64,000 nt of DNA from an uncultured Actinomycetota bacterium (GTDB taxonomy: Bacteria > Actinomycetota > Acidimicrobiia > Acidimicrobiales > Bog-793): contig CAVWVO010000001.1 in NCBI GenBank assembly GCA_963758515.1, forward strand, positions 529,110 to 593,109, read 5' to 3'. This document shows positions 5,320 through 20,636 of this stretch, in pieces. Every line of letters starts with the position of its first letter. The first letter of the stretch is position 1. The translations under genes were made by a program, and so were the position numbers. The notes beneath the pieces are model-generated. The model was not told where the DNA came from. It did not search any database and worked only from the letters and a program-made list of their open reading frames with translations.

Positions 5320-6269
<950 letters not shown>

Positions 6270-7030: not shown

Positions 7031-7119
7031 CCTGCCATCGTGCGCGCTGATCCGTGCCCGGGTAGCGTCTCGTGGCGTGCCCCGACGTGCTGCTTCTCGC
7101 AAGGCGGACAGCCGTGCCG

Positions 7120-7591
7120 ATGCCGCCCTCGGGATCCAACGAGTGGCCCAGAACCGGCGGGCTCGCCACGAGTACGACATCCTCGAGACCTACGAGTGCG
7201 GCATCGCTCTCACCGGAGCCGAGGTCAAGTCGCTCCGAGCAGGCAGATCTCTCTCCAGGACGCCTATGCACGCATCGACCGCGGCGAGGCGTGGCTCGTG
7301 GGCGCCCACGTGGCTCCGTACGAGTACGCGAGCGGGTTCGGCCGCTTCGACCCCGACCGGCCCCGCAAGCTCCTCCTCCACCGCGAGCAGATCGACGAGC
7401 TGGCCGGCGTCGTGGCCCAGAAGTCGCTCACGCTCGTCCCGCTCTCGGTCTACTTCAAGGACGGCCGGGCGAAGGTCGAGATCGGCCTCGCGAGGGGAAG
7501 GCGCCTCTACGACAAGCGGCGGGCTCTCGCCGAGCGCGACGCCTCCCGTGAGGCGGCCCGGGTCATAAAAGAGCACCAAGGCCGCCGCTGA
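7120..7591 (+). pseudogene. smpB: SsrA-binding protein SmpB, frame break at about 7245 and possibly about 7140
   Basis: [34 protein letters not shown] is in one frame. [23 protein letters not shown]...[12 protein letters not shown]...[21 protein letters not shown] continues in another. An alternative in-frame start for the first segment is GTG 7143. The tmRNA gene follows. Confidence 0.85.
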
Positions 7592-7761
7592 GTGAAGTCA
7601 CCGGCCGGCGGCGGTTCTCCACGGTCGTACGTCTGCTCGGCAGCAGTCGAGTGGTGCCGTCGTGATCAAGCGCCGGGGACGCCCTGTACGATGGAACGGC
7701 ACGACCTACCGTGGCGCCAGGTGGCCGTGCGCCTGCCGGCGGCGTCGATGATTACAACCAC

Positions 7762-8111
7762 GGGGGTGACAGGCTTCGACTCCGGTCGTCGAGATGGGAG
7801 AAGCGAGCCGTGGTCTCCGGAGCCACGTTAAAGAGCCGGAAACCAATACAAACGCCGAGCCTCAGCTCGCGCTTGCCGCCTAAATAACGGCAACGTCTGC
7901 CCGGTCCCAGCCCCGCGGATCGGTCGCAGGCGTCATCTAGCGGGGATCACCCGGACGACGATGCTGACACGTCGCCCGGGGACACTTTGGTCAGCTGGGG
8001 GCTCGCCTTCCTGCCGGTGGTAGGGCGAGCCCCGAGACTCAACCGCCGGCTGCGCTCGGAGAAGTCCCATCAAGAAGCTGGAGGACGCGGGTTCGACTCC
8101 CGCCACCTCCA
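7762..8111 (+). ncRNA. ssrA: tmRNA (transfer-messenger RNA)
   Basis: The 5' GGGGGUG pairs with the 3' CACCUCC plus discriminator A, including the G3:U pair. A T-arm GGACGCGGGUUCGACUCCCGCC lies at the 3' end. The internal tag ORF gcc gag cct cag ctc gcg ctt gcc gcc taa (7854-7883) encodes AEPQLALAA*. It lies immediately downstream of smpB. Confidence 0.85.
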
Positions 8112-8172
8112 CTCGAAGATCAGCCAGAGATACAGGGCCGCTCCTGACGAGGGTCCGCCGCCCGCAGGAACC

Positions 8173-9732: not shown

Positions 9733-10065
9733 GGGTCCTCCCAAGGCTGTGCGTCAAGTGCCGTGTCCGGCGTGGTCGCGCCAACGCTAGGTCGCGGTCG
9801 GGTGCACCGACGCTGTGCGAAAGGACAGATCTCGGCGAGCGGGTTCGGCCGATGCTTCGAGGGAAGGTGCCCGGGCACCGATAGGAGCCGCTGATGTCGC
9901 TGCGGCCGCGGCGGGTGACCGACAGCGCAGGGCCCCGACAAGACGGACTAACTGCACAAGCCATGTCCACGCCATTGCCGGGCGGGCATCAGCCCTTTCA
10001 GAGCGCTTCCCGGACTGAGCTAAACTAACCACGGTCAGTGATCTTGTAAGTGCGAGGAGTGATAA

Positions 10066-10509
10066 ATGTTTGGAAGTCGACGAGCACAACAGCGCCCACT
10101 CAGCATTGGTGGACGTCACCGCCAGTGGCTTGTAAAGGCAGGCGTGTCTGCCGTCCTCTTCTCTGGGATCGGGTTGGTATCAGCTGCAACCGCCCTCGCA
10201 GCTCCGAGCGCAGTCGGTGCGGCTACCTCGGCCGTGTCCGCGGCAGGGGCAACAAACCTCGCCGGCGAGGCTTGGAACGGCGAGGCTTGGAACGGCGAGG
10301 CTTGGAACGGCGAGGCCTGGAACGGCGAGGCCTGGAACGGCGAGGCCTGGAACGGCGAGGCCTGGAACGGCGAGGCGTGGAACGGCGAGGCCTGGAACGG
10401 CGAGGCCTGGAACGGCGAGACGGCCGGCGAGGCGTGGAACGGCAAGACGGCCGGTGAGGCATGGAATGGAGGGGTCGCCGCCACCTCGAACGGTGAGGCT
10501 TGGAACTGA
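10066..10509 (+). CDS. secreted-type tandem pentapeptide (GEAWN)n repeat protein, function unknown
   Basis: SD-like GAGGAG lies 7 nt upstream of the ATG. The N-terminus has a basic n-region, a hydrophobic h-region (AGVSAVLFSGIGLVSAATALA) and an AxA site. The rest is 13 GEAWN units, and the protein ends exactly on a unit. All inter-unit DNA differences are synonymous in this frame only. Confidence 0.7.
   Translation: MFGSRRAQQRPLSIGGRHRQWLVKAGVSAVLFSGIGLVSAATALAAPSAVGAATSAVSAAGATNLAGEAWNGEAWNGEAWNGEAWNGEAWNGEAWNGEAWNGEAWNGEAWNGEAWNGETAGEAWNGKTAGEAWNGGVAATSNGEAWN
10264..10506 (+). repeat. 15-bp tandem repeat ggcgaggcNtggaac: 10 contiguous copies plus 3 interspersed copies
   Basis: Direct reading shows units at 10264-10413 (10 copies; the variable base is gct x3, gcc x4, gcg, gcc x2). 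Further units lie at 10426-10440, 10453-10467 and 10492-10506, separated by 12-24 nt spacers (GETA, GKTA, GGVAATSN). Confidence 0.95.
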
Positions 10510-10637
10510 TCGCCTAGCGGAAATGGCGTGCGAGACAGCAACCTTTTAAGCGAAGACGGCCAACAGCCCACGAAAAGGGCAGACGCTCCATTTGGTAAGC
10601 TGCAGAAGGGCCTCGTTGAACAACAAGCGGGCTTGGC

Positions 10638-13412
10638 GTGGAGCCGCGTGGCGCTCCGAGGGGGGCCATCTTGATCAGCCGATATAAAGGTGAGCTTCCG
10701 CGCCCGGCCCGGCTGTGCGTCACCGGTGTCGTGTTTGCCGGGATCGCCTCCACGTCGCTCACGCTTGCGTTCTACGGGCGCCTCGGCTTTGGCCCGAGCC
10801 TCACGCTTGTGGTCATGTCGTCGCTCGTGCTGGCGGGCTGGATCTGGCCGATCCTCATGTACTCGCGGGGATCGTCGCGAGCCTTTCATCTCGACGAGGG
10901 TTATCTGATCGTCATGGCCCTCGTCCTTCCGCCGGCCGGAGCCCTCCTCGCGTTCGTGGTCTCAACCACCGTGGCTCAGGCGGTCAGGCGTCGGACGGGA
11001 GTGAAGTCGCTCTTCAACGTGTCACAGATCACCGTCTCGGCTGCCGCCGGCCTTTTGACCGCCCACCTCCTGGCCGCGCCCGCAGGACGGCTGTCGGCAG
11101 GCGCGCTGGCGGCAGCCGTTGCCGGTGCGTGTGTCTACTTCCTCGTGAACGCGGTCGCACTCGCTGCGATCCTTACAGCGAGCGGAGCGGAAAGATTCTT
11201 CGGCACCCTCACCGACGGAATCGAGAGCCGCCTGCTCCTGCTCGCCGGCGCGGTCGCCCTCGGGCTCGTCTCGGCGATGGCCGTCAGTCACGACCCGGCG
11301 ATGACCCCCCTCGTCATTCTTCCCTTTGTTGCATTCCGCCAGGCGCTGGCCGGACACTTCCAGGCGCGTCACGACCGGAACCGCCTCCTCGGCCTGTTCG
11401 ATGCGACGCTCGAGGTCCACCGGACGATGGGCTCGGAGGAGGTCACGTCGGCTCTGTCACAAGCAGCCTCAGACTTGCTGCGTTCTCCTGACGCCGAGGT
11501 GCGCACAGCCCCGCCCGGGCAACGTCCCGGGATGATGTCGGCTGCGATGACGGGCGGCCCATCGCAACGATGGCTCGTCGCGAGCGGCCGGAGCCGGAGC
11601 GAGCCCTTCGACGCTGCCGATCACGCACTACTCGACGCCCTCGCGGCGCTCGGTTCGGGAGCACTCGAGAACTCCATGCTCTACGAGGACCGCCGCCGCG
11701 AGAAGGAGCGTCTGCTGGCGATCACCTCGAGCCTCGGCGAAGGTGTCCTCGCCTTTGACCGCGAGGCCAAGCTGACCTTCGCCAATCCCGCCGCCGTCGA
11801 GCTCCTCGGCTGGAGCGAATCCGACCTCCTCCTCCGCAGCGCCGCCGCCTCGGGCGACCCGGTGCTTTCGTCGACCGCCCTCCGTTCGATCGACAGAGGG
11901 CTGGCGATCCGCGACGAGCGAGCGCTCTTCCAGCGGCGCGGCCGGGATCCCTTCCCCGTCGAGTTCACCTGCTCGCCGATCGTCTCCGGCACCGGGGACA
12001 CCGCCGGCGCGGTCCTCGCCTTCCGGGACATATCCGAACGCCTCGCGACCGAGGAGCAGCTGGAGTACCAGGCGTTCCACGACGTGCTGACAGGATTGCC
12101 GAACCGCAGGATCTTCCTCGACCGCCTGCAGCAGGCGCTCAAGCGTTCAGCGAGGAGCGACGAGCTCCACACGGTGCTCTTCGTCGATGTGGACCGTTTC
12201 AAGATGACCAACGACAGTCTCGGTCACCTGGCCGGCGACGAGCTGTTGAAGTCAATCGCCGAGCGCCTGAAGGGCCTGGCGCGGGACGAGGACACCCTTG
12301 CCCGCTTCGGTGGTGACGAGTTCATTCTGCTGCTCGAGAACATCGGCACGCTCGAAGGCGCCGAACGGATGGCGGTGAGGATCCTCGAGGCTGTTCGGGT
12401 GCCGATCACGCTGAGCAACGGAAGGATCATCCTCGCCAGCGTGAGCATCGGCATCGCCTTGGCCTCCGCCGGCTGCTCGTCCGATGACGTCCTCCACGAT
12501 GCCGACGTCGCGATGTACGAGGCAAAGTCCCGCGGAATCGGGCGGTACGCGATATTCGACGCCGCCGCCATGGGCAAGCGCTCAGAGGAATGGCTCGATC
12601 TCGAGCTCGGGCTGAAGCGAGCGATCGAGGTCGGAGAGATCTCCGTCGTCTACCAGCCGGTCGTCGCAACGACGTCAGGGCGGATAGTGGGTTCGGAGGC
12701 GCTCGTCAGGTGGGACCATCCCGACAGGGGCCTGCTCTCGCCGGCGACGTTCATCAGCGTCGCCGAGGAGACAGGGCTGATCCTGCCGCTCGGCCGGGTG
12801 GTGCTCGAGGAGGCATGCCGTCAGGCAGCCCGCTGGGCGGTCGGTGCTCCGAACGTGAGCGTTGCCGTCAACCTGTCGGCTCGCCAGTTCCAGCAGCAGG
12901 ACCTCGTGCAAGAGATCGGTTCGGTGCTGTCCGGCACCGGTCTTGCTCCCTTCCTGCTCTGCCTCGAGATCACCGAGACGGTCGCGATGGAGGACATCGA
13001 GCGCACGATCAGGGTGCTCAACGAGCTGAAGGCGCTCGGCGTGAGACTGGCCATCGACGACTTCGGCACTGGCTACTCGTCGCTCAACTACCTGAAGCGA
13101 CTTCCGGTCGACGTGGTCAAGCTGGACCGCAGCTTCATTCAAGAGCTCGACATCAACGCCGTCGACTCGGCGATCGTCTCTGCGGTCATCAATCTTGCCG
13201 ACGCGATCGGGATGATGGCGATCGCAGAGGGAGTCGAGACCGCCGACCAGCTCGAGCGACTCACGAGCCTCGGCTGCCCGATGGTGCAGGGGTACCTGCT
13301 GGCCCGGCCGATGTCGGCCGAGGCGTTCAATGGTCTTCTCGGCCGGCAGGACGCAGGCGGACTGGTTGTCCTCTCGAGGGACGGCACCGGCAGGTCCCTC
13401 GCCATCGCCTGA
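10638..13412 (+). CDS. multi-TM sensor protein with PAS, GGDEF and EAL domains (c-di-GMP cyclase/phosphodiesterase)
   Basis: Intact 924-aa ORF. About 230 aa of hydrophobic helices lie at the N-terminus, followed by a PAS-like segment. GGDEF is literally present (LARFGGDEFILLL). The EAL region shows ...GSEALVRW... and ...DDFGTGYSSLNYL. The exact start is uncertain. Confidence 0.9.
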   Translation: MEPRGAPRGAILISRYKGELPRPARLCVTGVVFAGIASTSLTLAFYGRLGFGPSLTLVVMSSLVLAGWIWPILMYSRGSSRAFHLDEGYLIVMALVLPPAGALLAFVVSTTVAQAVRRRTGVKSLFNVSQITVSAAAGLLTAHLLAAPAGRLSAGALAAAVAGACVYFLVNAVALAAILTASGAERFFGTLTDGIESRLLLLAGAVALGLVSAMAVSHDPAMTPLVILPFVAFRQALAGHFQARHDRNRLLGLFDATLEVHRTMGSEEVTSALSQAASDLLRSPDAEVRTAPPGQRPGMMSAAMTGGPSQRWLVASGRSRSEPFDAADHALLDALAALGSGALENSMLYEDRRREKERLLAITSSLGEGVLAFDREAKLTFANPAAVELLGWSESDLLLRSAAASGDPVLSSTALRSIDRGLAIRDERALFQRRGRDPFPVEFTCSPIVSGTGDTAGAVLAFRDISERLATEEQLEYQAFHDVLTGLPNRRIFLDRLQQALKRSARSDELHTVLFVDVDRFKMTNDSLGHLAGDELLKSIAERLKGLARDEDTLARFGGDEFILLLENIGTLEGAERMAVRILEAVRVPITLSNGRIILASVSIGIALASAGCSSDDVLHDADVAMYEAKSRGIGRYAIFDAAAMGKRSEEWLDLELGLKRAIEVGEISVVYQPVVATTSGRIVGSEALVRWDHPDRGLLSPATFISVAEETGLILPLGRVVLEEACRQAARWAVGAPNVSVAVNLSARQFQQQDLVQEIGSVLSGTGLAPFLLCLEITETVAMEDIERTIRVLNELKALGVRLAIDDFGTGYSSLNYLKRLPVDVVKLDRSFIQELDINAVDSAIVSAVINLADAIGMMAIAEGVETADQLERLTSLGCPMVQGYLLARPMSAEAFNGLLGRQDAGGLVVLSRDGTGRSLAIA

Positions 13413-17156: not shown

Positions 17157-17888
17157 ATGGCCGGCGAGCGCCTCGGGCGCATTCTTCGGGAGTTGCGGCG
17201 CGCCGGCGCAGTCGGGTCGGAGTCGAGCCGCCTGTGCGCCGTCTGCGCCAGGGTCTCGGCCATGACGGGCGCAGGCATAATGCTCATGTCAGAGGATGTG
17301 CCCTTCGGCTCGGTCTGCACGACTGACGGCGTCGCCGCTCTCATCGAAGAGCTTCAGTTCACCCTCGGCGAGGGTCCCGGCGTCGACGCCTACCTCCAGG
17401 ATCGGCCGGTGCTCGAGCCTGATCTTGCAGACCCGGGGACGGCCCGCTGGTTGGCGTTCTCACCTCCCGTCGTGGCGGCCGGTGCCCGCGCCGCCTTTTC
17501 CTTCCCCCTCCAGGTCGGCTCGGTGCGCCTCGGATCGCTCAACTTCTACAGGGACCGGCCGGGATCGCTCAGCGATGACCAACACGCCGACGCCCTCGTG
17601 CTGGCAGGCGTGGCGGCCCGCGGCGTCCTCACCATGCAGGCGAATGGGCCACCAGGGGCGCTCGCCATCGAGCTCGAGGAGGGCGCCGACTTCCGGCTCG
17701 TCGTGCACCAGGCAGCCGGCATGGTGGCGGCGCAGCTCGACGTGAGCGTCCGGGAAGCCCTGGTCCGGCTGCGCTCGTTCGCCTTTACGAGCGACCGCCC
17801 GGTCTCTGAGGTGGCAGCGGACGTCGTCTTGCACCGGGTGCATCTTGACGACGGCGACGGCAGCCCGCCCGCCTATGCGAGTGGATGA
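17157..17888 (+). CDS. GAF domain plus ANTAR domain RNA-binding regulator
   Basis: The N-terminal GAF-like region contains EELQFTLGEGPGVDA. The C-terminal ANTAR-like helix is VVHQAAGMVAAQLDVSVREALVRLRSFAF. Confidence 0.8.
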   Translation: MAGERLGRILRELRRAGAVGSESSRLCAVCARVSAMTGAGIMLMSEDVPFGSVCTTDGVAALIEELQFTLGEGPGVDAYLQDRPVLEPDLADPGTARWLAFSPPVVAAGARAAFSFPLQVGSVRLGSLNFYRDRPGSLSDDQHADALVLAGVAARGVLTMQANGPPGALAIELEEGADFRLVVHQAAGMVAAQLDVSVREALVRLRSFAFTSDRPVSEVAADVVLHRVHLDDGDGSPPAYASG

Positions 17889-17992
17889 GAACGGAGGTCC
17901 CTGCCGGCCGTACCCGGAAAGCTGCCGCCCGAGAGCCTAGAGTCATGGGAGCCGGCGTCTCGGGCCACGGGAGGAGAGAACATGAGGACACG

Positions 17993-18790
17993 ATGGTGAC
18001 GCGAGAACTGTCGCTCACCCAGACGATGGTTGAGCTCGCCGACACTCTCGTCGACGACTTCGATGTCGTCGACCTGTTCAGCCTTTTGACGGATCGGTGC
18101 GTGCATCTGTTCGGGATCTCGGCTGCCGGCCTGATGCTCATATCCGCCGAGGGGGACCTCCGTGTAGTGGCATCCTCATCCGAGAAGATGCGTCTCCTCG
18201 AGCTGTTCGAGGAGCAAGCCGAAGAAGGTCCCTGCCTCGACTGTTACCGGACGGGCCAGCAGGTCGTGAACCAGGACCTCACCGCGAGCGGCAGCCGCTG
18301 GCCCCGGTTCGCCCCGAAGGCGCTCATGGCAGGGTTCCGATCCGCCCATGCGATGCCGATGCGGCTCCGGCGAGTGGTCATCGGCGCCCTCAACCTGTTC
18401 GGGACGGATCCGGCAGGAATGACGGACGCGGACATCCTTGCCGCCCAGGCGCTGGCCGACCTGGCGACGATCGCCATACTTCAGAAGCGTGCGGCCGCCG
18501 ACGCCCAGATATTGAGCGATCAGCTGAGCCGCGCCCTCAACAGCCGCATCCTCATCGAGCAGGCCAAGGGAATGCTTGCCGAACGAGCGGGGATGGAGAT
18601 GGACCTGGCGTTTTCAGCCCTGAGGGAGCATGCCCGCCGGCACAACCGGCTGCTCGCCGATGTCGCCCGGGACTTCATCACCGGAGCCATTCCGACAACC
18701 GAATTGGCGGTGCGCAACCGAGCCGGGGGGCGAGCACGCCTCCCGCCGGCCAACTCCATTCCTGAGGTAATCCTGCGCCGGAACGAGTAA
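17993..18790 (+). CDS. GAF domain plus ANTAR domain RNA-binding regulator (paralog of the preceding gene)
   Basis: MVELADTLVDDFDVVDLFSLL...EEGPCLDCY is the GAF-like part. ILIEQAKGMLAERAGMEMDLAFSALREHARRHNRLL is the ANTAR consensus. The start is chosen at the ATG following a GGGAGGAGAG stretch. Confidence 0.8.
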   Translation: MVTRELSLTQTMVELADTLVDDFDVVDLFSLLTDRCVHLFGISAAGLMLISAEGDLRVVASSSEKMRLLELFEEQAEEGPCLDCYRTGQQVVNQDLTASGSRWPRFAPKALMAGFRSAHAMPMRLRRVVIGALNLFGTDPAGMTDADILAAQALADLATIAILQKRAAADAQILSDQLSRALNSRILIEQAKGMLAERAGMEMDLAFSALREHARRHNRLLADVARDFITGAIPTTELAVRNRAGGRARLPPANSIPEVILRRNE

Positions 18791-18878
18791 AGTCGTCACA
18801 GAGCAGCTTTGGAGAGGCTCGTCGAGACCCCGCGAGCGCACCGCCGGCACCGGTGGCGCGAAGGCAGGGAAAGGCTGG

Positions 18879-20636
18879 ATGGACGGCTCTTCGATCGCCC
18901 CCGACGTGCCGGAGGGCACTGGCGAAGGCGGCTATCCCTCACTGGCTCTTTTCTCGCCCGACCTCAACACGGTGGCCACGAAGGAGGGCGTGCTGCGCTA
19001 CGTCTCCCCGGCCTGCTATGACCTGTTCGGCTGGAAGCCGGACGAGCTAGAAGGTCGGACAGAGGACGAGTTCATCCACCCGGACGATCTGGCGGCGCTC
19101 CGTGATTGCCGTGAGGCCCTCGAGTCGGCCGAAGTGGCGACGGTGAGCTACCGGTTCATCTGCCAGGACGGCTCGAGCCGCTGGACCGAGGCGACGTCTC
19201 GACGGGTCGATGAGAACGGTGAGCTGCTGGTCGTCTCGGCCATCCGTGACGTCACGAACCGGCAGATGCACATCGCCCGGCTGGAGCATCAGGCGTTCTC
19301 CGATCCACTCACCGGAGTGGCCAACCGAACGGTGCTGCTGGACCGGCTGCGTCACGGTCTCCGCCGGCTGGGCCGTTCGTCGGGGGTCCTCGCCGTGCTC
19401 TATCTCGATCTCGACAGGTTCAAGGTAGTGAACGACTCGCTCGGGCTCCGTGTCGGGGACTCGGTTCTCCTGCAGATGGCGGAGCGTCTCGTCCAGCACC
19501 TTCGCCCGGCGGACACGCTCGGGCGCCTCGGGGGCGACGAGTTCGTGATCGTCGCCGATGCCCTCGTCGACGAACAGTCGGCTATCGGCATGGCCAAGCG
19601 GATCGCAGCCGCCGGGCGGCAGCCATTTCACGTGGGCGGCGAGGACCTCGTCTGCACGATGAGCATCGGCGTCGCATGCACGAAGGACTCCGAACGGAGC
19701 GCTGACGACCTGCTCGGCGAAGCCGACCTCGCCCTCCACAGGGCGAAGGAGCGGGGCCGTGACCGGGTGGAGGCTTTCGACGAACAGCTTCGTACGAAAG
19801 CCGTCGGGCGCCTCGTCACCGAGAGGATGCTGCGGCGGGCTCTCGAAGAGCAGCGCCTCGTCGTCGAGTACCAGCCCATCGTGGACCTCCGCTCCCGCCG
19901 TCTCGTCGGCGCCGAAGCCCTCATGCGCATCATGGACCCCGATCGCGGGCTTCTCCTACCGGATTCGTTCATCGGGGTGGCTGAAGAGACGGGTCTCCTC
20001 ATCGAGATGGACGAAGAGGTCTTGAATGACGCGGTGAGACAGGCAAGCAGGTGGCACAGCCGCATGCCCGGGAGCGACTTCACCGAAGTGGCGATAAACG
20101 TCACCGCCCGGCATCTCGCAGACTCGGGGTTCCATCGGGGCGTCATAGACCAGCTCGACGCCCATGAGGTGCCTCACGGCAACCTGCAGGTCGAAGTGAC
20201 CGAACGCGTCCTCCTCGAAGCCTCCAACTCCTCGATGACAGGCCTCTGGGCACTCCGGGAGGCCGGCGTCAAGATCGGCCTCGACGACTTCGGAACCGGC
20301 TACTCGTCACTCGCCTACCTGCACCAATTCCCACTCGACTTCGTGAAGATCGACAAGTCGTTCATCCACGGGCTCAACTGGGTCAACGGCGCCGGCAGGA
20401 GCGGGCGCGCCATCGTCGCTGCCATAATCGACCTCTCGCACGCCCTCGAGCTGACGGTGGTCGCGGAGGGCGTCGAGACCGAGGAGCAGCTTCGGATACT
20501 CGAGGCTCTCGACTGCGACCGCGGGCAAGGCTTTCTCTTTTCGCCCTCCGCCCCGCCCGCGTTGCTCGACGGGCTTGTCACCGCAGGACTGCAGCATGAC
20601 GGCGCTGTCCTGACCTCTGGCGCGGCGGCCTCGTAG
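18879..20636 (+). CDS. PAS-GGDEF-EAL c-di-GMP signalling protein
   Basis: Intact 585-aa ORF with an N-terminal PAS-like segment. GGDEF is present (LGRLGGDEFVIVA). The EAL region shows GAEALMRI and DDFGTGYSSLAYL. Confidence 0.9.
   Translation: MDGSSIAPDVPEGTGEGGYPSLALFSPDLNTVATKEGVLRYVSPACYDLFGWKPDELEGRTEDEFIHPDDLAALRDCREALESAEVATVSYRFICQDGSSRWTEATSRRVDENGELLVVSAIRDVTNRQMHIARLEHQAFSDPLTGVANRTVLLDRLRHGLRRLGRSSGVLAVLYLDLDRFKVVNDSLGLRVGDSVLLQMAERLVQHLRPADTLGRLGGDEFVIVADALVDEQSAIGMAKRIAAAGRQPFHVGGEDLVCTMSIGVACTKDSERSADDLLGEADLALHRAKERGRDRVEAFDEQLRTKAVGRLVTERMLRRALEEQRLVVEYQPIVDLRSRRLVGAEALMRIMDPDRGLLLPDSFIGVAEETGLLIEMDEEVLNDAVRQASRWHSRMPGSDFTEVAINVTARHLADSGFHRGVIDQLDAHEVPHGNLQVEVTERVLLEASNSSMTGLWALREAGVKIGLDDFGTGYSSLAYLHQFPLDFVKIDKSFIHGLNWVNGAGRSGRAIVAAIIDLSHALELTVVAEGVETEEQLRILEALDCDRGQGFLFSPSAPPALLDGLVTAGLQHDGAVLTSGAAAS

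What the first reader, a model, noticed from the sequence alone, without database searches (positions are those of the whole stretch)
10066..10509. Secreted-looking protein made almost entirely of a tandem pentapeptide (GEAWN x13) under peptide-level constraint
After a Sec-type leader (basic n-region, hydrophobic core, ALA-AP site), the ORF is 10 back-to-back GEAWN units. Three more units follow, separated by short spacers (GETA, GKTA, GGVAATSN), and the stop codon comes directly after the last unit. Across the 13 DNA units, every difference I can see is a synonymous third-position change in this frame (gct/gcc/gcg/gca, ggc/ggt, aac/aat). In the other forward frame (RRGLE/RRGVE) and the antisense frame (FQASP/FHASP) the same differences change the amino acid. 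This argues that the peptide GEAWN is what is conserved, rather than a recent DNA slippage array. I do not recognise this repeat as a known family, and it does not fit the A(D/N)LXX pentapeptide-repeat consensus. The layout of a signal peptide plus many copies of a short Trp-containing unit resembles multi-copy exported peptide precursors such as Phr-type pentapeptides or yeast alpha-factor-type precursors. A repetitive surface or cell-wall-binding protein is an equally open option. The flanks (about 9990-10065 and 10510-10640) are visibly less GC-rich than the surroundings. The next gene is a multi-TM GGDEF-EAL sensor.
Basis: partly seen in the sequence, partly recalled or inferred. Interest (0 to 1): 0.8.

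Follow-up and report, generated by a model that had tools for sequence, protein, structure and literature searches.

The report
Stand-alone Trp-pentapeptide tail beside c-di-GMP sensor
This is a real gene for a small exported protein made of GEAWN repeats; in related bacteria the same repeat forms the tail of a secreted protease, and both versions sit directly in front of the same membrane c-di-GMP signalling enzyme, a pairing that appears undescribed.

Summary
Window 10066-10509 encodes a 147-aa protein: a Sec-type leader, then 13 GEAWN units running to the stop codon. All unit-to-unit DNA differences are synonymous.

It is not an orphan. It belongs to an apparently undescribed repeat module, (G-x-x-W-N/S/D/T)n ending W-x-stop. 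No Pfam, NCBIfam, PDB or literature match was found. In Acidimicrobiia this module forms the C-terminal tail of secreted mycosin-like S8 proteases.

In about 21-23 of 27 such loci, the next gene on the same strand is an orthologue (43-64% identity) of the window's MASE9-PAS-GGDEF-EAL protein. The window gene occupies that slot but has no protease domain.

Two further "tail-only" orthologues (L125, L128) lie upstream of 80%-identical sensor orthologues. They share the start codon, the ribosome-binding site and a -10-like box. Leader dN/dS is 0.16-0.29.

The function is inferred, not shown. The most likely role is an exported, envelope- or sensor-binding repeat module partnering the c-di-GMP enzyme. 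A multi-copy peptide-signal precursor remains a live rival. I rate it a new variant of a known kind, of moderately high interest.

The parts
10016..10026 (+). Conserved -10-like promoter element (TGAGCTAAACT; TAAACT at 10021-10026)
   Evidence: It aligns with TACACT in L128 and TATAAT in L125, in the same position upstream of the orthologous genes. The sigma-70 consensus scan did not call a full promoter. This is an inference from conservation.
10052..10059 (+). Shine-Dalgarno sequence GCGAGGAG
   Evidence: It is conserved as GCGAGGAG/GCGAGGGG in L128 and L125 and lies 6-9 nt before the shared ATG.
10066..10200 (+). Leader, aa 1-45: basic n-region, 22-residue hydrophobic core, A-L-A site. It is a Sec-type signal peptide or possibly a signal anchor.
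   Evidence: Sequence; hydropathy maximum at aa 27-41. It is homologous to the leaders of L128 and L125. dN/dS over 31 codons is 0.16-0.29. No SignalP run was possible.
10201..10263 (+). Ala/Ser/Gly-rich linker (aa 46-66)
   Evidence: It is poorly conserved between the three tail-only orthologues.
10264..10413 (+). Ten contiguous GEAWN units
   Evidence: The units use three DNA variants (GCT/GCC/GCG), all synonymous.
10414..10506 (+). Three more GEAWN units (10426-10440, 10453-10467, 10492-10506) separated by GETA, GKTA and GGVAATSN. The last unit ends the protein.
   Evidence: The W-x-stop ending is shared with 22 of 22 closed actinobacterial tails. The W-W spacings of 9, 9 and 13 break the 5-residue register.
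10507..10509 (+). Stop codon directly after the last unit
10638..13412 (+). Partner gene: MASE9-PAS-GGDEF-EAL membrane c-di-GMP enzyme. The GGDEF motif, the RxxD I-site and the EAL motif are intact. A public record calls a product identical over the shared residues but 913 aa long, i.e. starting 11 codons later.
   Evidence: Pfam and about 7-8 TM segments. Orthologues lie directly downstream of S8-tail or tail-only genes in about 23 loci. Motif survey.

Best explanation
SHOWN.
- Window 10066-10509 is a genuine gene for a small exported protein. It has a Sec-type leader followed by G-E-A-W-N units that run to the stop codon.
- It is the stand-alone ("tail-only") form of a repeat module, (G-x-x-W-N/S/D/T)n ending W-x-stop. 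In other Acidimicrobiia this module is the C-terminal tail of a secreted, mycosin-like S8 serine protease.
- Both forms are encoded directly upstream of the same orthologous polytopic membrane enzyme, MASE9-PAS-GGDEF-EAL, on the same strand. The unit is therefore a conserved two-gene module: repeat-bearing exported protein, then c-di-GMP sensor/enzyme.

INFERRED mechanism.
- After export, the array displays a regular row of Trp/Asn-containing units.
- This array binds the cell envelope and/or the downstream sensor.
- In the protease-bearing relatives it would hold the protease at the cell surface next to the sensor. It takes the place of the C-terminal membrane anchor of true mycosins.
- In the window's lineage the protease domain is absent, probably lost. 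Only the binding array is kept, as the extracytoplasmic partner of the c-di-GMP enzyme.
For: Real gene:
- The SD, the ATG, a -10-like box and the leader are conserved in two independent orthologues, L128 and L125.
- Leader dN/dS is 0.16-0.29.
- All unit differences are synonymous.

Family:
- A genome scan found S8 proteases with GAAWN, GSSWN, GSAWN, GTAWN, GAGWN, GSTWN and GHSWN tails in Acidimicrobiia and other Actinomycetota MAGs. Pfam confirms Peptidase_S8 and finds no domain on the tail.
- NCBIfam's best match for the protease domain is mycosin, below its cut-off.
- 22 of 22 closed tails end one residue after the last Trp, as does the window protein.
- Identical peptide units are encoded by many DNA versions: 20 units by 10 versions in L041, 23 by 15 in L072, 27 by 12 in L027.

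Synteny:
- The window's GGDEF-EAL protein has full-length orthologues at 43-64% identity immediately downstream of the S8-tail gene in about 20 loci.
- Orthologues at 80% identity are preceded by tail-only genes.

Binding-module reading:
- AlphaFold2 with an alignment of tails gives all-beta structure at pLDDT 70-75 for residues 61-120. The Foldseek hits, although not significant, are all beta-helices.
- Tails in some lineages have heterogeneous x2x3 residues, as structural repeats do (L003, L032, L043, L056, L090).
- W-W spacing is 5 in 476 of 511 steps in S8 tails.
- Similar arrays follow the lipobox of Myxococcota-type lipoproteins. They also accompany a PG_binding_1 domain in Udaeobacter proteins.
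Against: - No experiment bears on the function.
- The AlphaFold model has only moderate confidence (pTM 0.37). The single-sequence run gave coil. AlphaFold is known to over-predict solenoids for repeats.
- No significant fold match was found.
- Spacers of 4 and 8 residues in the window protein break the 5-residue register. This fits a strictly periodic fold poorly.
- Exact identity of x2x3 maintained through synonymous change is more than a fold should need.
- MASE9 has only short external loops. Its describers propose that it binds its ligand within the membrane (bioRxiv 10.1101/2021.11.05.467447).
- Homology of the leader to S8 N-termini is weak (z 1-4), so loss of the protease domain is inferred from position only.
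- Stand-alone repeat proteins L108 and S8 tails of the wider family (L129) lack a GGDEF-EAL neighbour.
Confidence: 0.45

Rival explanations
1. Multi-copy precursor of a diffusible pentapeptide signal. The array is a polyprotein of identical G-x-x-W-N (or N-G-x-x-W) peptides. An S8 protease cuts them out. The protease is fused in cis in most Acidimicrobiia and would have to act in trans in the window's lineage. The Trp-containing peptide is then sensed by the adjacent MASE9 membrane domain and alters c-di-GMP synthesis or breakdown, as a quorum-sensing-like loop.
For: - Units are identical at the peptide level despite many synonymous differences.
- x2x3 differs between species (AA, SS, SA, TA, AG, ST, HS, EA, GA) while G, W and N stay fixed, a pherotype-like pattern.
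- Proteins end exactly at a unit boundary, W-x-stop, in 22 of 22 cases.
- In tail-only proteins the unit is preserved while the spacing is not. The window has 4- and 8-residue spacers; L128 has 5-residue GVTA[SA] spacers.
- The carrier is a protease with an intact D-H-S triad.
- A polytopic membrane sensor is the conserved neighbour.
- MASE9 is proposed to bind its ligand within the membrane.
Against: - No peptide has been detected.
- There are no recognisable processing spacers, and no maturase, exporter or known peptide receptor nearby.
- Tails with heterogeneous units exist, for example L003, L056 and L090.
- The same kind of array occurs on S8 proteases and lipoproteins with no c-di-GMP neighbour.
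- No S8 gene lies in the 64-kb window.
- Copy numbers of 20-37 are unprecedented for bacterial pheromones (my knowledge).
- AlphaFold suggests a folded beta structure.
Confidence: 0.25
2. Specific docking handle for the sensor, a LapG/LapD-like logic. The tail binds the MASE9-PAS-GGDEF-EAL protein itself, so that the c-di-GMP state controls where the protease sits or whether it is active. The tail-only protein is a decoy or competitor, or the remaining subunit of that complex.
For: - The protease gene and the GGDEF-EAL gene are tightly and widely adjacent, with gaps of 11-45 nt.
- The tail plus the sensor are retained after loss of the protease domain.
- One S8 protease with a GISWD tail lies next to an HD-GYP-type protein with a sub-threshold MASE9 match.
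Against: - GGDEF, the I-site and EAL are intact in 111-115 of 120 orthologues. These look like enzymes rather than degenerate receptors such as LapD.
- There is no LapD-type periplasmic domain or HAMP, and the external loops are only 10-19 residues long.
- S8 is unrelated to the LapG protease family (my knowledge).
- The L130 observation is a single case below the Pfam cut-off.
Confidence: 0.12
3. Non-functional leftover. Either it is a decaying remnant of an S8-tail gene after deletion of the protease domain, or it is simply a DNA tandem repeat (VNTR) that happens to be open in this frame.
For: - The leader has a GC3 of only 0.56, against 0.84-0.89 in neighbouring genes.
- Copy number differs widely between relatives: 13, 12, 2 or more than 5.
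- The exact protein is absent from a collection of about 15 billion proteins.
- All six frames are open across the array.
- The assembly carries frameshifts elsewhere.
Against: - Three orthologues keep the start codon, the SD, a -10-like box, the leader and the W-N-stop ending.
- Leader dN/dS is 0.16-0.29.
- Variation between units is synonymous only.
- The reading frame is intact over 444 nt.
- The array has been re-expanded with different architectures in different lineages.
Confidence: 0.06
4. A divergent member of the classical pentapeptide-repeat protein family, with the A(D/N)LXX consensus and a right-handed quadrilateral beta-helix.
For: - The period is 5 residues.
- Two S8 tails of the wider family give sub-threshold Pentapeptide_3 matches.
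- AlphaFold predicts beta-rich structure.
Against: - No Pentapeptide-clan match for the window protein at E <= 1.
- The consensus differs, with Trp in place of the central Leu/Phe and no A(D/N) at the preceding positions.
- No pentapeptide-repeat structure appears among the Foldseek hits.
- Classical members are mostly cytoplasmic, whereas this protein is exported.
Confidence: 0.03

Closest known systems
C-terminal (GxxW[NSDT])n tails of actinobacterial mycosin-like S8 proteases (found here; unannotated in Pfam and NCBIfam)
   Same: Same 5-residue unit with fixed G, W and N. Same W-x-stop ending. Both are exported. Same position directly upstream of the orthologous MASE9-PAS-GGDEF-EAL gene.
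   Different: The window protein has no protease domain. Its unit has Glu at x2. Three spacers break the 5-residue register.
Pentapeptide-repeat proteins (Pfam clan Pentapeptide, A(D/N)LXX; e.g. MfpA, Qnr)
   Same: Tandem 5-residue period and a predicted beta-rich repeat structure.
   Different: No HMM match and a different consensus, with Trp-Asn-Gly instead of (D/N)-(L/F)-x-x. This protein is exported rather than cytoplasmic. No fold match.
Small secreted pentapeptide-repeat proteins of unknown function, e.g. NCBIfam TIGR02953 "pentapeptide MXKDX repeat protein"
   Same: As I recall it (not checked here), the same overall build: a signal peptide followed almost entirely by a tandem pentapeptide.
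   Different: No match to that model. The unit is unrelated, and as I recall it the family is found in a different phylum. The function of that family is also unknown.
Repeat-based cell-envelope binding tails of Gram-positive secreted enzymes (choline-binding repeats, GW modules, LGFP repeats; from general knowledge)
   Same: Terminal arrays of short aromatic-rich repeats on exported enzymes. Arrays are homogenised within a protein and vary in copy number.
   Different: No sequence relationship. The unit is much shorter, and binding has not been tested.
Multi-copy exported peptide precursors (yeast alpha-factor, fungal Kex2-processed repeat proteins, Phr-type peptides)
   Same: A signal peptide plus many identical short units. 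In relatives a subtilisin-type protease is associated.
   Different: No dibasic or other processing spacers. No known receptor type is present. No product has been detected. Some relatives have non-identical units.
LapG-LapD protease / c-di-GMP receptor pair of Pseudomonas (from general knowledge)
   Same: An extracytoplasmic protease gene adjacent to a membrane GGDEF-EAL gene.
   Different: The protease family is different. The GGDEF and EAL motifs are intact here. The sensor has MASE9-PAS instead of the LapD periplasmic domain and HAMP. The window copy lacks the protease altogether.

Membership tests
Pentapeptide-repeat family (Pfam PF00805/PF13576/PF13599) | Significant match to a Pentapeptide-clan HMM | tested here: not met
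   The Pfam scan at E <= 1 returned only GETHR.
Pentapeptide-repeat family (Pfam PF00805/PF13576/PF13599) | Consensus A(D/N)(L/F)XX, with a central Leu/Phe and a small residue two positions before it | tested here: not met
   The unit is G-E-A-W-N. No register gives A-(D/N)-(L/F).
Pentapeptide-repeat family (Pfam PF00805/PF13576/PF13599) | Right-handed quadrilateral beta-helix fold | tested here: inconclusive
   AlphaFold2 with an alignment gives beta structure at pLDDT 70-75. Foldseek finds no significant hit and no pentapeptide-repeat structure.
GETHR pentapeptide repeat (Pfam PF05671) | Score at or above the gathering threshold | tested here: not met
   22.0 bits against a cut-off of 22.4, over one stretch only.
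NCBIfam TIGR02953 pentapeptide MXKDX repeat protein | Match to the model | tested here: not met
   No NCBIfam family at E <= 10.
(GxxW[NSDT])n-COOH tail module of Acidimicrobiia S8 proteases (defined here) | 5-residue period with Gly at position 1, invariant Trp at position 4 and N/S/D/T at position 5 | tested here: met
   13 of 13 units are GEAWN. They align with the tails, with Trp columns invariant or nearly so. phmmer hits to S8 tails reach E = 1.8e-31.
(GxxW[NSDT])n-COOH tail module of Acidimicrobiia S8 proteases (defined here) | Protein ends exactly one residue after the last Trp | tested here: met
   The window protein ends ...GEAWN-stop. 22 of 22 closed actinobacterial tails do the same.
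(GxxW[NSDT])n-COOH tail module of Acidimicrobiia S8 proteases (defined here) | Gene lies directly upstream, on the same strand, of an orthologue of the MASE9-PAS-GGDEF-EAL gene | tested here: met
   The window gap is 128 nt. Orthologous pairs are found in about 21-23 of 27 loci.
(GxxW[NSDT])n-COOH tail module of Acidimicrobiia S8 proteases (defined here) | Carried on a Peptidase_S8 catalytic domain | tested here: not met
   The 147-aa protein has no S8 domain. No S8 domain is present anywhere in the window. The same tail-only form occurs in L125 and L128.
Multi-copy exported peptide precursors (alpha-factor / Phr type) | Signal peptide plus several identical copies of the mature unit | tested here: met
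Multi-copy exported peptide precursors (alpha-factor / Phr type) | Defined processing sites or spacers and a processing protease | tested here: inconclusive
   Ten units have no spacers. The spacers GETA, GKTA and GGVAATSN are not dibasic. An S8 protease is fused in relatives but absent from the window.
Multi-copy exported peptide precursors (alpha-factor / Phr type) | Cognate receptor of a known peptide-sensing type (RRNPP regulator, HPK10-type kinase, GPCR) | tested here: not met
   The neighbours are a serine hydrolase and a MASE9-PAS-GGDEF-EAL protein. No such receptor lies within about 10 kb.
Multi-copy exported peptide precursors (alpha-factor / Phr type) | Released mature peptide detectable outside the cell | not testable with these tools
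   This needs LC-MS of culture or environmental supernatant.
LapG/LapD-type protease-receptor module | Degenerate GGDEF-EAL receptor with a LapD periplasmic domain and HAMP | tested here: not met
   GGDEF, the RxxD I-site and EAL are intact in the window protein (read directly from the translation; domains) and in 111-115 of 120 orthologues. The N-terminus is MASE9 with short loops.

The most novel reading that the evidence does not exclude
The GxxWN arrays are polyprotein precursors of a new class of Trp-containing pentapeptide signals. A subtilisin-type protease releases them. The protease is fused to the precursor in most Acidimicrobiia and separate in this lineage. The peptides are sensed within the membrane by the MASE9 domain of the adjacent GGDEF-EAL enzyme. 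That would be a peptide-to-c-di-GMP cell-cell signalling circuit and the first ligand assigned to a MASE9 sensor.
Probability: 0.2. Interest if true: 0.9.

Novelty: new variant of a known kind. Interest (0 to 1): 0.66.

Why it matters
MASE-type membrane sensor domains are common inputs of c-di-GMP enzymes. For MASE9 the describing preprint names no ligand or partner and only one, poorly expressed, characterised member protein. Here a specific exported protein module is genetically tied to one MASE9 enzyme across many Acidimicrobiia. It stays tied even after its protease domain is lost. This gives a concrete candidate partner or ligand that can be tested with a synthetic peptide or a recombinant repeat protein.

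The finding also defines a widespread, unannotated repeat module on actinobacterial secreted proteases. That should improve annotation of soil and freshwater Actinomycetota MAGs. The module also shows unusually clear peptide-level purifying selection on perfectly repeated units.

Tried and rejected
- Pfam and NCBIfam on the protein gave only a sub-threshold GETHR hit.
- The word-indexed homologue search gave two weak, uninformative hits.
- Exact look-ups of the protein, of acs and of the public-record versions of SmpB and the sensor found nothing. I could not see how this genome is annotated.
- A metagenome scan for GEAWNGEAWN-coding DNA gave 0 hits.
- A second scan, for the conserved leader, found only one contig from the same population as L126.
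- Rfam found only the tmRNA, and no riboswitch upstream.
- The promoter/terminator scan called no promoter and no terminator between the two genes.
- PDB sequence search with the repeat gave no hit.
- Literature searches for motif strings and for protease/pentapeptide terms found nothing relevant.
- Single-sequence AlphaFold gave low-confidence coil.
- Foldseek against the PDB gave no significant match.
- tblastn for an S8 domain in the window found none.
- A search for a tmRNA 3'-end repeat that would mark an integrated island found none.
- Flanking genes other than the sensor are not shared with the S8-tail loci.
- Similarity between the leader and S8 N-termini is weak and inconclusive.
- Most of the 1841 exhaustive-search hits, and many genome-scan hits, are spurious ORFs through satellite DNA. 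Examples are (GGAAT)n read as GMEWN and a eukaryotic GPCR. I discarded them.
Full report
**1. The observation.**
Window 10066-10509 (+) is an ATG-initiated ORF of 147 codons. A GAGGAG Shine-Dalgarno sequence lies 7 nt before the ATG.

The product has a basic N-terminus and a 22-residue hydrophobic core ending in A-L-A|A-P. An Ala/Ser-rich linker follows. Then come ten back-to-back GEAWN units, then GETA-GEAWN-GKTA-GEAWN-GGVAATSN-GEAWN, and the stop codon. Tandem Repeats Finder reports period 15, 12.3 copies, score 292.

The 13 units use five DNA versions that differ only at unit positions 3, 9 and 15. All three are third codon positions, and all changes are synonymous in this frame.

The antisense FQASP frame has the same third positions, so most of these changes are silent there too. 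Only the three GCG/GCA units alter it. On its own, the window's synonymy argument is therefore modest.

The flanks are less GC-rich, 0.55-0.57 against 0.65-0.73. The leader has an unusually low GC3 of 0.56, against 0.84-0.89 in neighbouring genes.

**2. It is a real gene.**
The window comes from an Acidimicrobiales genome, judged from SmpB relatives.

Orthologues of the downstream sensor at 80% identity are preceded by small ORFs with the same build in two independent assemblies.
- L128 683-1213 encodes 176 aa: MFDSRR...RRWLLTAAMSSALLSGVGLIAAGTA..., then 12 GGAWN units separated by GVTA[SA], ending GGAWN-stop.
- L125 5527-5820 encodes 97 aa: a homologous leader, ending ...NGGAWNGGAWN-stop.

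The DNA alignment shows a conserved ATG, a conserved SD (GCGAGGAG) and a -10-like TAnAnT box about 35 nt upstream. Over 31 leader codons dN/dS is 0.16-0.29.

A third contig, L131, breaks inside the array, so copy number in short-read assemblies is unreliable.

**3. What family it belongs to.**
Pfam gives only a sub-threshold GETHR hit. NCBIfam, PDB sequences and full-text literature searches for the motif give nothing.

A scan of GTDB species genomes for WNGxxWNGxxWN-coding DNA returned much junk, mostly (GGAAT)n satellite read as GMEWN. It also returned a coherent set of Acidimicrobiia and other Actinomycetota loci. In these, a secreted Peptidase_S8 protein carries a C-terminal tail of 10-37 units: GAAWN, GSSWN, GSAWN, GTAWN, GAGWN, GSTWN or GHSWN.

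The catalytic domain is closest to mycosin but scores far below that model's cut-off. The tail has no Pfam or NCBIfam model.

The exhaustive profile search shows a wider family with Ser, Asp or Thr at position 5, again mostly on S8 proteases.

Every closed actinobacterial tail, 22 of 22, stops exactly one residue after the last Trp, as the window protein does.

Identical peptide units are encoded by many DNA versions: 20 GSAWN units by 10 versions in L041, 23 GAAWN by 15 in L072, and 27 GAGWN by 12 in L027.

**4. The conserved partner.**
The gene after the S8-tail gene, on the same strand and 11-45 nt away, is an orthologue of the window's MASE9-PAS-GGDEF-EAL protein. Identity is 43-64% over the full length. 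This holds in about 21-23 of 27 loci with enough sequence. No other flanking gene is shared, so the pair itself is the conserved unit.

The window gene sits in the slot of the S8-tail gene but has no protease domain. No S8 domain exists anywhere in the 64-kb window.
- Sensor orthologues at 62-64% identity (L077, L064, L127) still have the full protease.
- Those at 80-100% identity (L125, L128 and the window) have the tail-only form.

This suggests loss of the protease domain in one sub-lineage. Similarity between the leader and S8 N-termini is too weak to prove that.

The sensor keeps GGDEF, the RxxD I-site and EAL in 111-115 of 120 orthologues. It has about 7-8 membrane segments with loops of 10-19 residues. 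The authors who defined MASE9 proposed that it binds its ligand within the membrane and named no ligand (bioRxiv 10.1101/2021.11.05.467447).

**5. How it may work.**
I see two main readings.

(a) A binding or structural module.
- With an alignment of tails, AlphaFold2 predicts continuous beta structure for residues 61-120 at pLDDT 70-75. The non-significant Foldseek hits are all beta-helices.
- S8 tails are strictly 5-periodic, in 476 of 511 W-W steps.
- Some lineages have heterogeneous x2x3 residues, like structural repeats.
- True mycosins end in a membrane anchor, and this tail takes its place (my knowledge of mycosins).
- Similar arrays follow the lipobox of Myxococcota-type lipoproteins. 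They also accompany a peptidoglycan-binding domain in Udaeobacter proteins.

(b) A multi-copy peptide precursor.
- Units are kept identical through synonymous change.
- x2x3 differs between species.
- The protein ends at a unit boundary.
- In tail-only proteins the unit is preserved while the spacing is not: 9, 9 and 13 residues in the window, 10 in L128.
- The carrier is a subtilisin-type protease, and the neighbour is a polytopic membrane sensor.

I give (a) 0.45 and (b) 0.25. A LapG/LapD-like docking variant gets 0.12, a non-functional leftover 0.06, and a classical pentapeptide-repeat protein 0.03. Nothing here is experimental. The AlphaFold evidence is weak: pTM is 0.37 and the single-sequence run gave coil.

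**6. Comparison with known systems.**
It is not a member of the A(D/N)LXX pentapeptide-repeat family, because the HMM, the consensus and the fold match all fail or are inconclusive. It is not a member of GETHR, nor of the MXKDX small secreted repeat proteins.

It resembles repeat-based envelope-binding tails of Gram-positive exoenzymes in position and behaviour. It resembles multi-copy peptide precursors in layout. The gene pair resembles LapG-LapD only in pairing a protease with a membrane GGDEF-EAL protein.

**7. Verdict.**
The finding is real and is not ordinary. The repeat module and its conserved coupling to a MASE9 c-di-GMP enzyme appear to be undescribed. The window holds an informative natural variant in which only the repeat tail is kept. 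I rate it a new variant of a known kind, with interest 0.66. The most novel reading still open is a peptide-to-c-di-GMP signalling circuit, at probability about 0.2.

**Caveats.**
- The assembly shows frameshifts in a nearby cysM-like gene, so indel errors are possible.
- The repeat copy number should be confirmed with long reads.
- The gene lies in a region after smpB-tmRNA whose content differs between close relatives.

Noticed in passing
window 5320-6260 (-): The cysM-like PALP gene is split over three reading frames relative to its orthologue in L121. It lies next to ThiS and JAB genes. It is either a pseudogene or the assembly carries indel errors.
   Followed up: partly
window 7040-8114 and downstream; L121, L122: Gene content immediately after smpB-tmRNA differs between the window and two close relatives (SmpB 91-93% identical). 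The repeat gene and its sensor therefore lie in a variable region. No repeat of the tmRNA 3' end was found in the window.
   Followed up: partly
window 17157-20636 (+): There are two adjacent GAF-ANTAR regulator genes, followed by a second, soluble PAS-GGDEF-EAL gene. This puts more c-di-GMP signalling genes close by.
   Followed up: no
L076 2438-2713 (Kitasatospora sp. KL5 chromosome); also L012, L014, L016, L017, L025, L028, L046, L093, L103: (GGAAT)n human-satellite-like DNA, read as GMEWN in all frames, is present in many bacterial assemblies. Most cases are tiny low-coverage contigs. One lies inside a complete 73% GC chromosome. These look like contamination or mis-assembly.
   Followed up: no
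L130 3405-6920: An S8 protease with a 37-unit GISWD tail has a divergently transcribed neighbour of the HD_5 (HD-GYP type) family. The neighbour's N-terminus gives a sub-threshold MASE9 match (16.3 bits against a cut-off of 24.3). This hints that the link is to MASE9 rather than to GGDEF-EAL.
   Followed up: partly
L035 2736-4031, L112 3970-5634 (Thermoplasmata MAG): Archaeal S8 proteases carry 5-7 GAQWN/GAEWN units between the N-terminal prodomain and the catalytic domain rather than at the C-terminus.
   Followed up: no
L053 1910-4054; proteins P0013, P0114: Large lipoprotein-like proteins have arrays of 9-15 GxxWN units (GIGWN, GLAWN, GQSWN) directly after the signal peptide or lipobox, ahead of a conserved Cys-rich domain. 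L053 comes from a Myxococcales MAG.
   Followed up: no
L018, L019, L118 (Udaeobacter / Verrucomicrobiota): Small secreted proteins combine G[RH]NWN pentapeptide arrays, a Trp/Gly/Tyr-rich stretch and a C-terminal PG_binding_1 domain.
   Followed up: partly
L131 1-360 and L126 1-92 (same JGI sample); L125 5527-5820: Two contigs end inside the GGAWN array of the tail-only orthologue, while another assembly shows only two units. The array breaks or collapses short-read assemblies, so copy numbers are uncertain.
   Followed up: partly
L080 4119-6188: The N-terminal pre-region of this S8-tail protease contains about ten copies of an RSVAWM motif. This is a second, different Trp-containing repeat.
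   Followed up: no
L108 2205-2684; L124 8001-8317 (protein P0130): Other stand-alone proteins consist of a signal peptide plus G[KR]AWN or GAAWN units. L108 has no GGDEF-EAL neighbour. L124 ends at the contig edge. The tail-only form may therefore have arisen more than once.
   Followed up: partly
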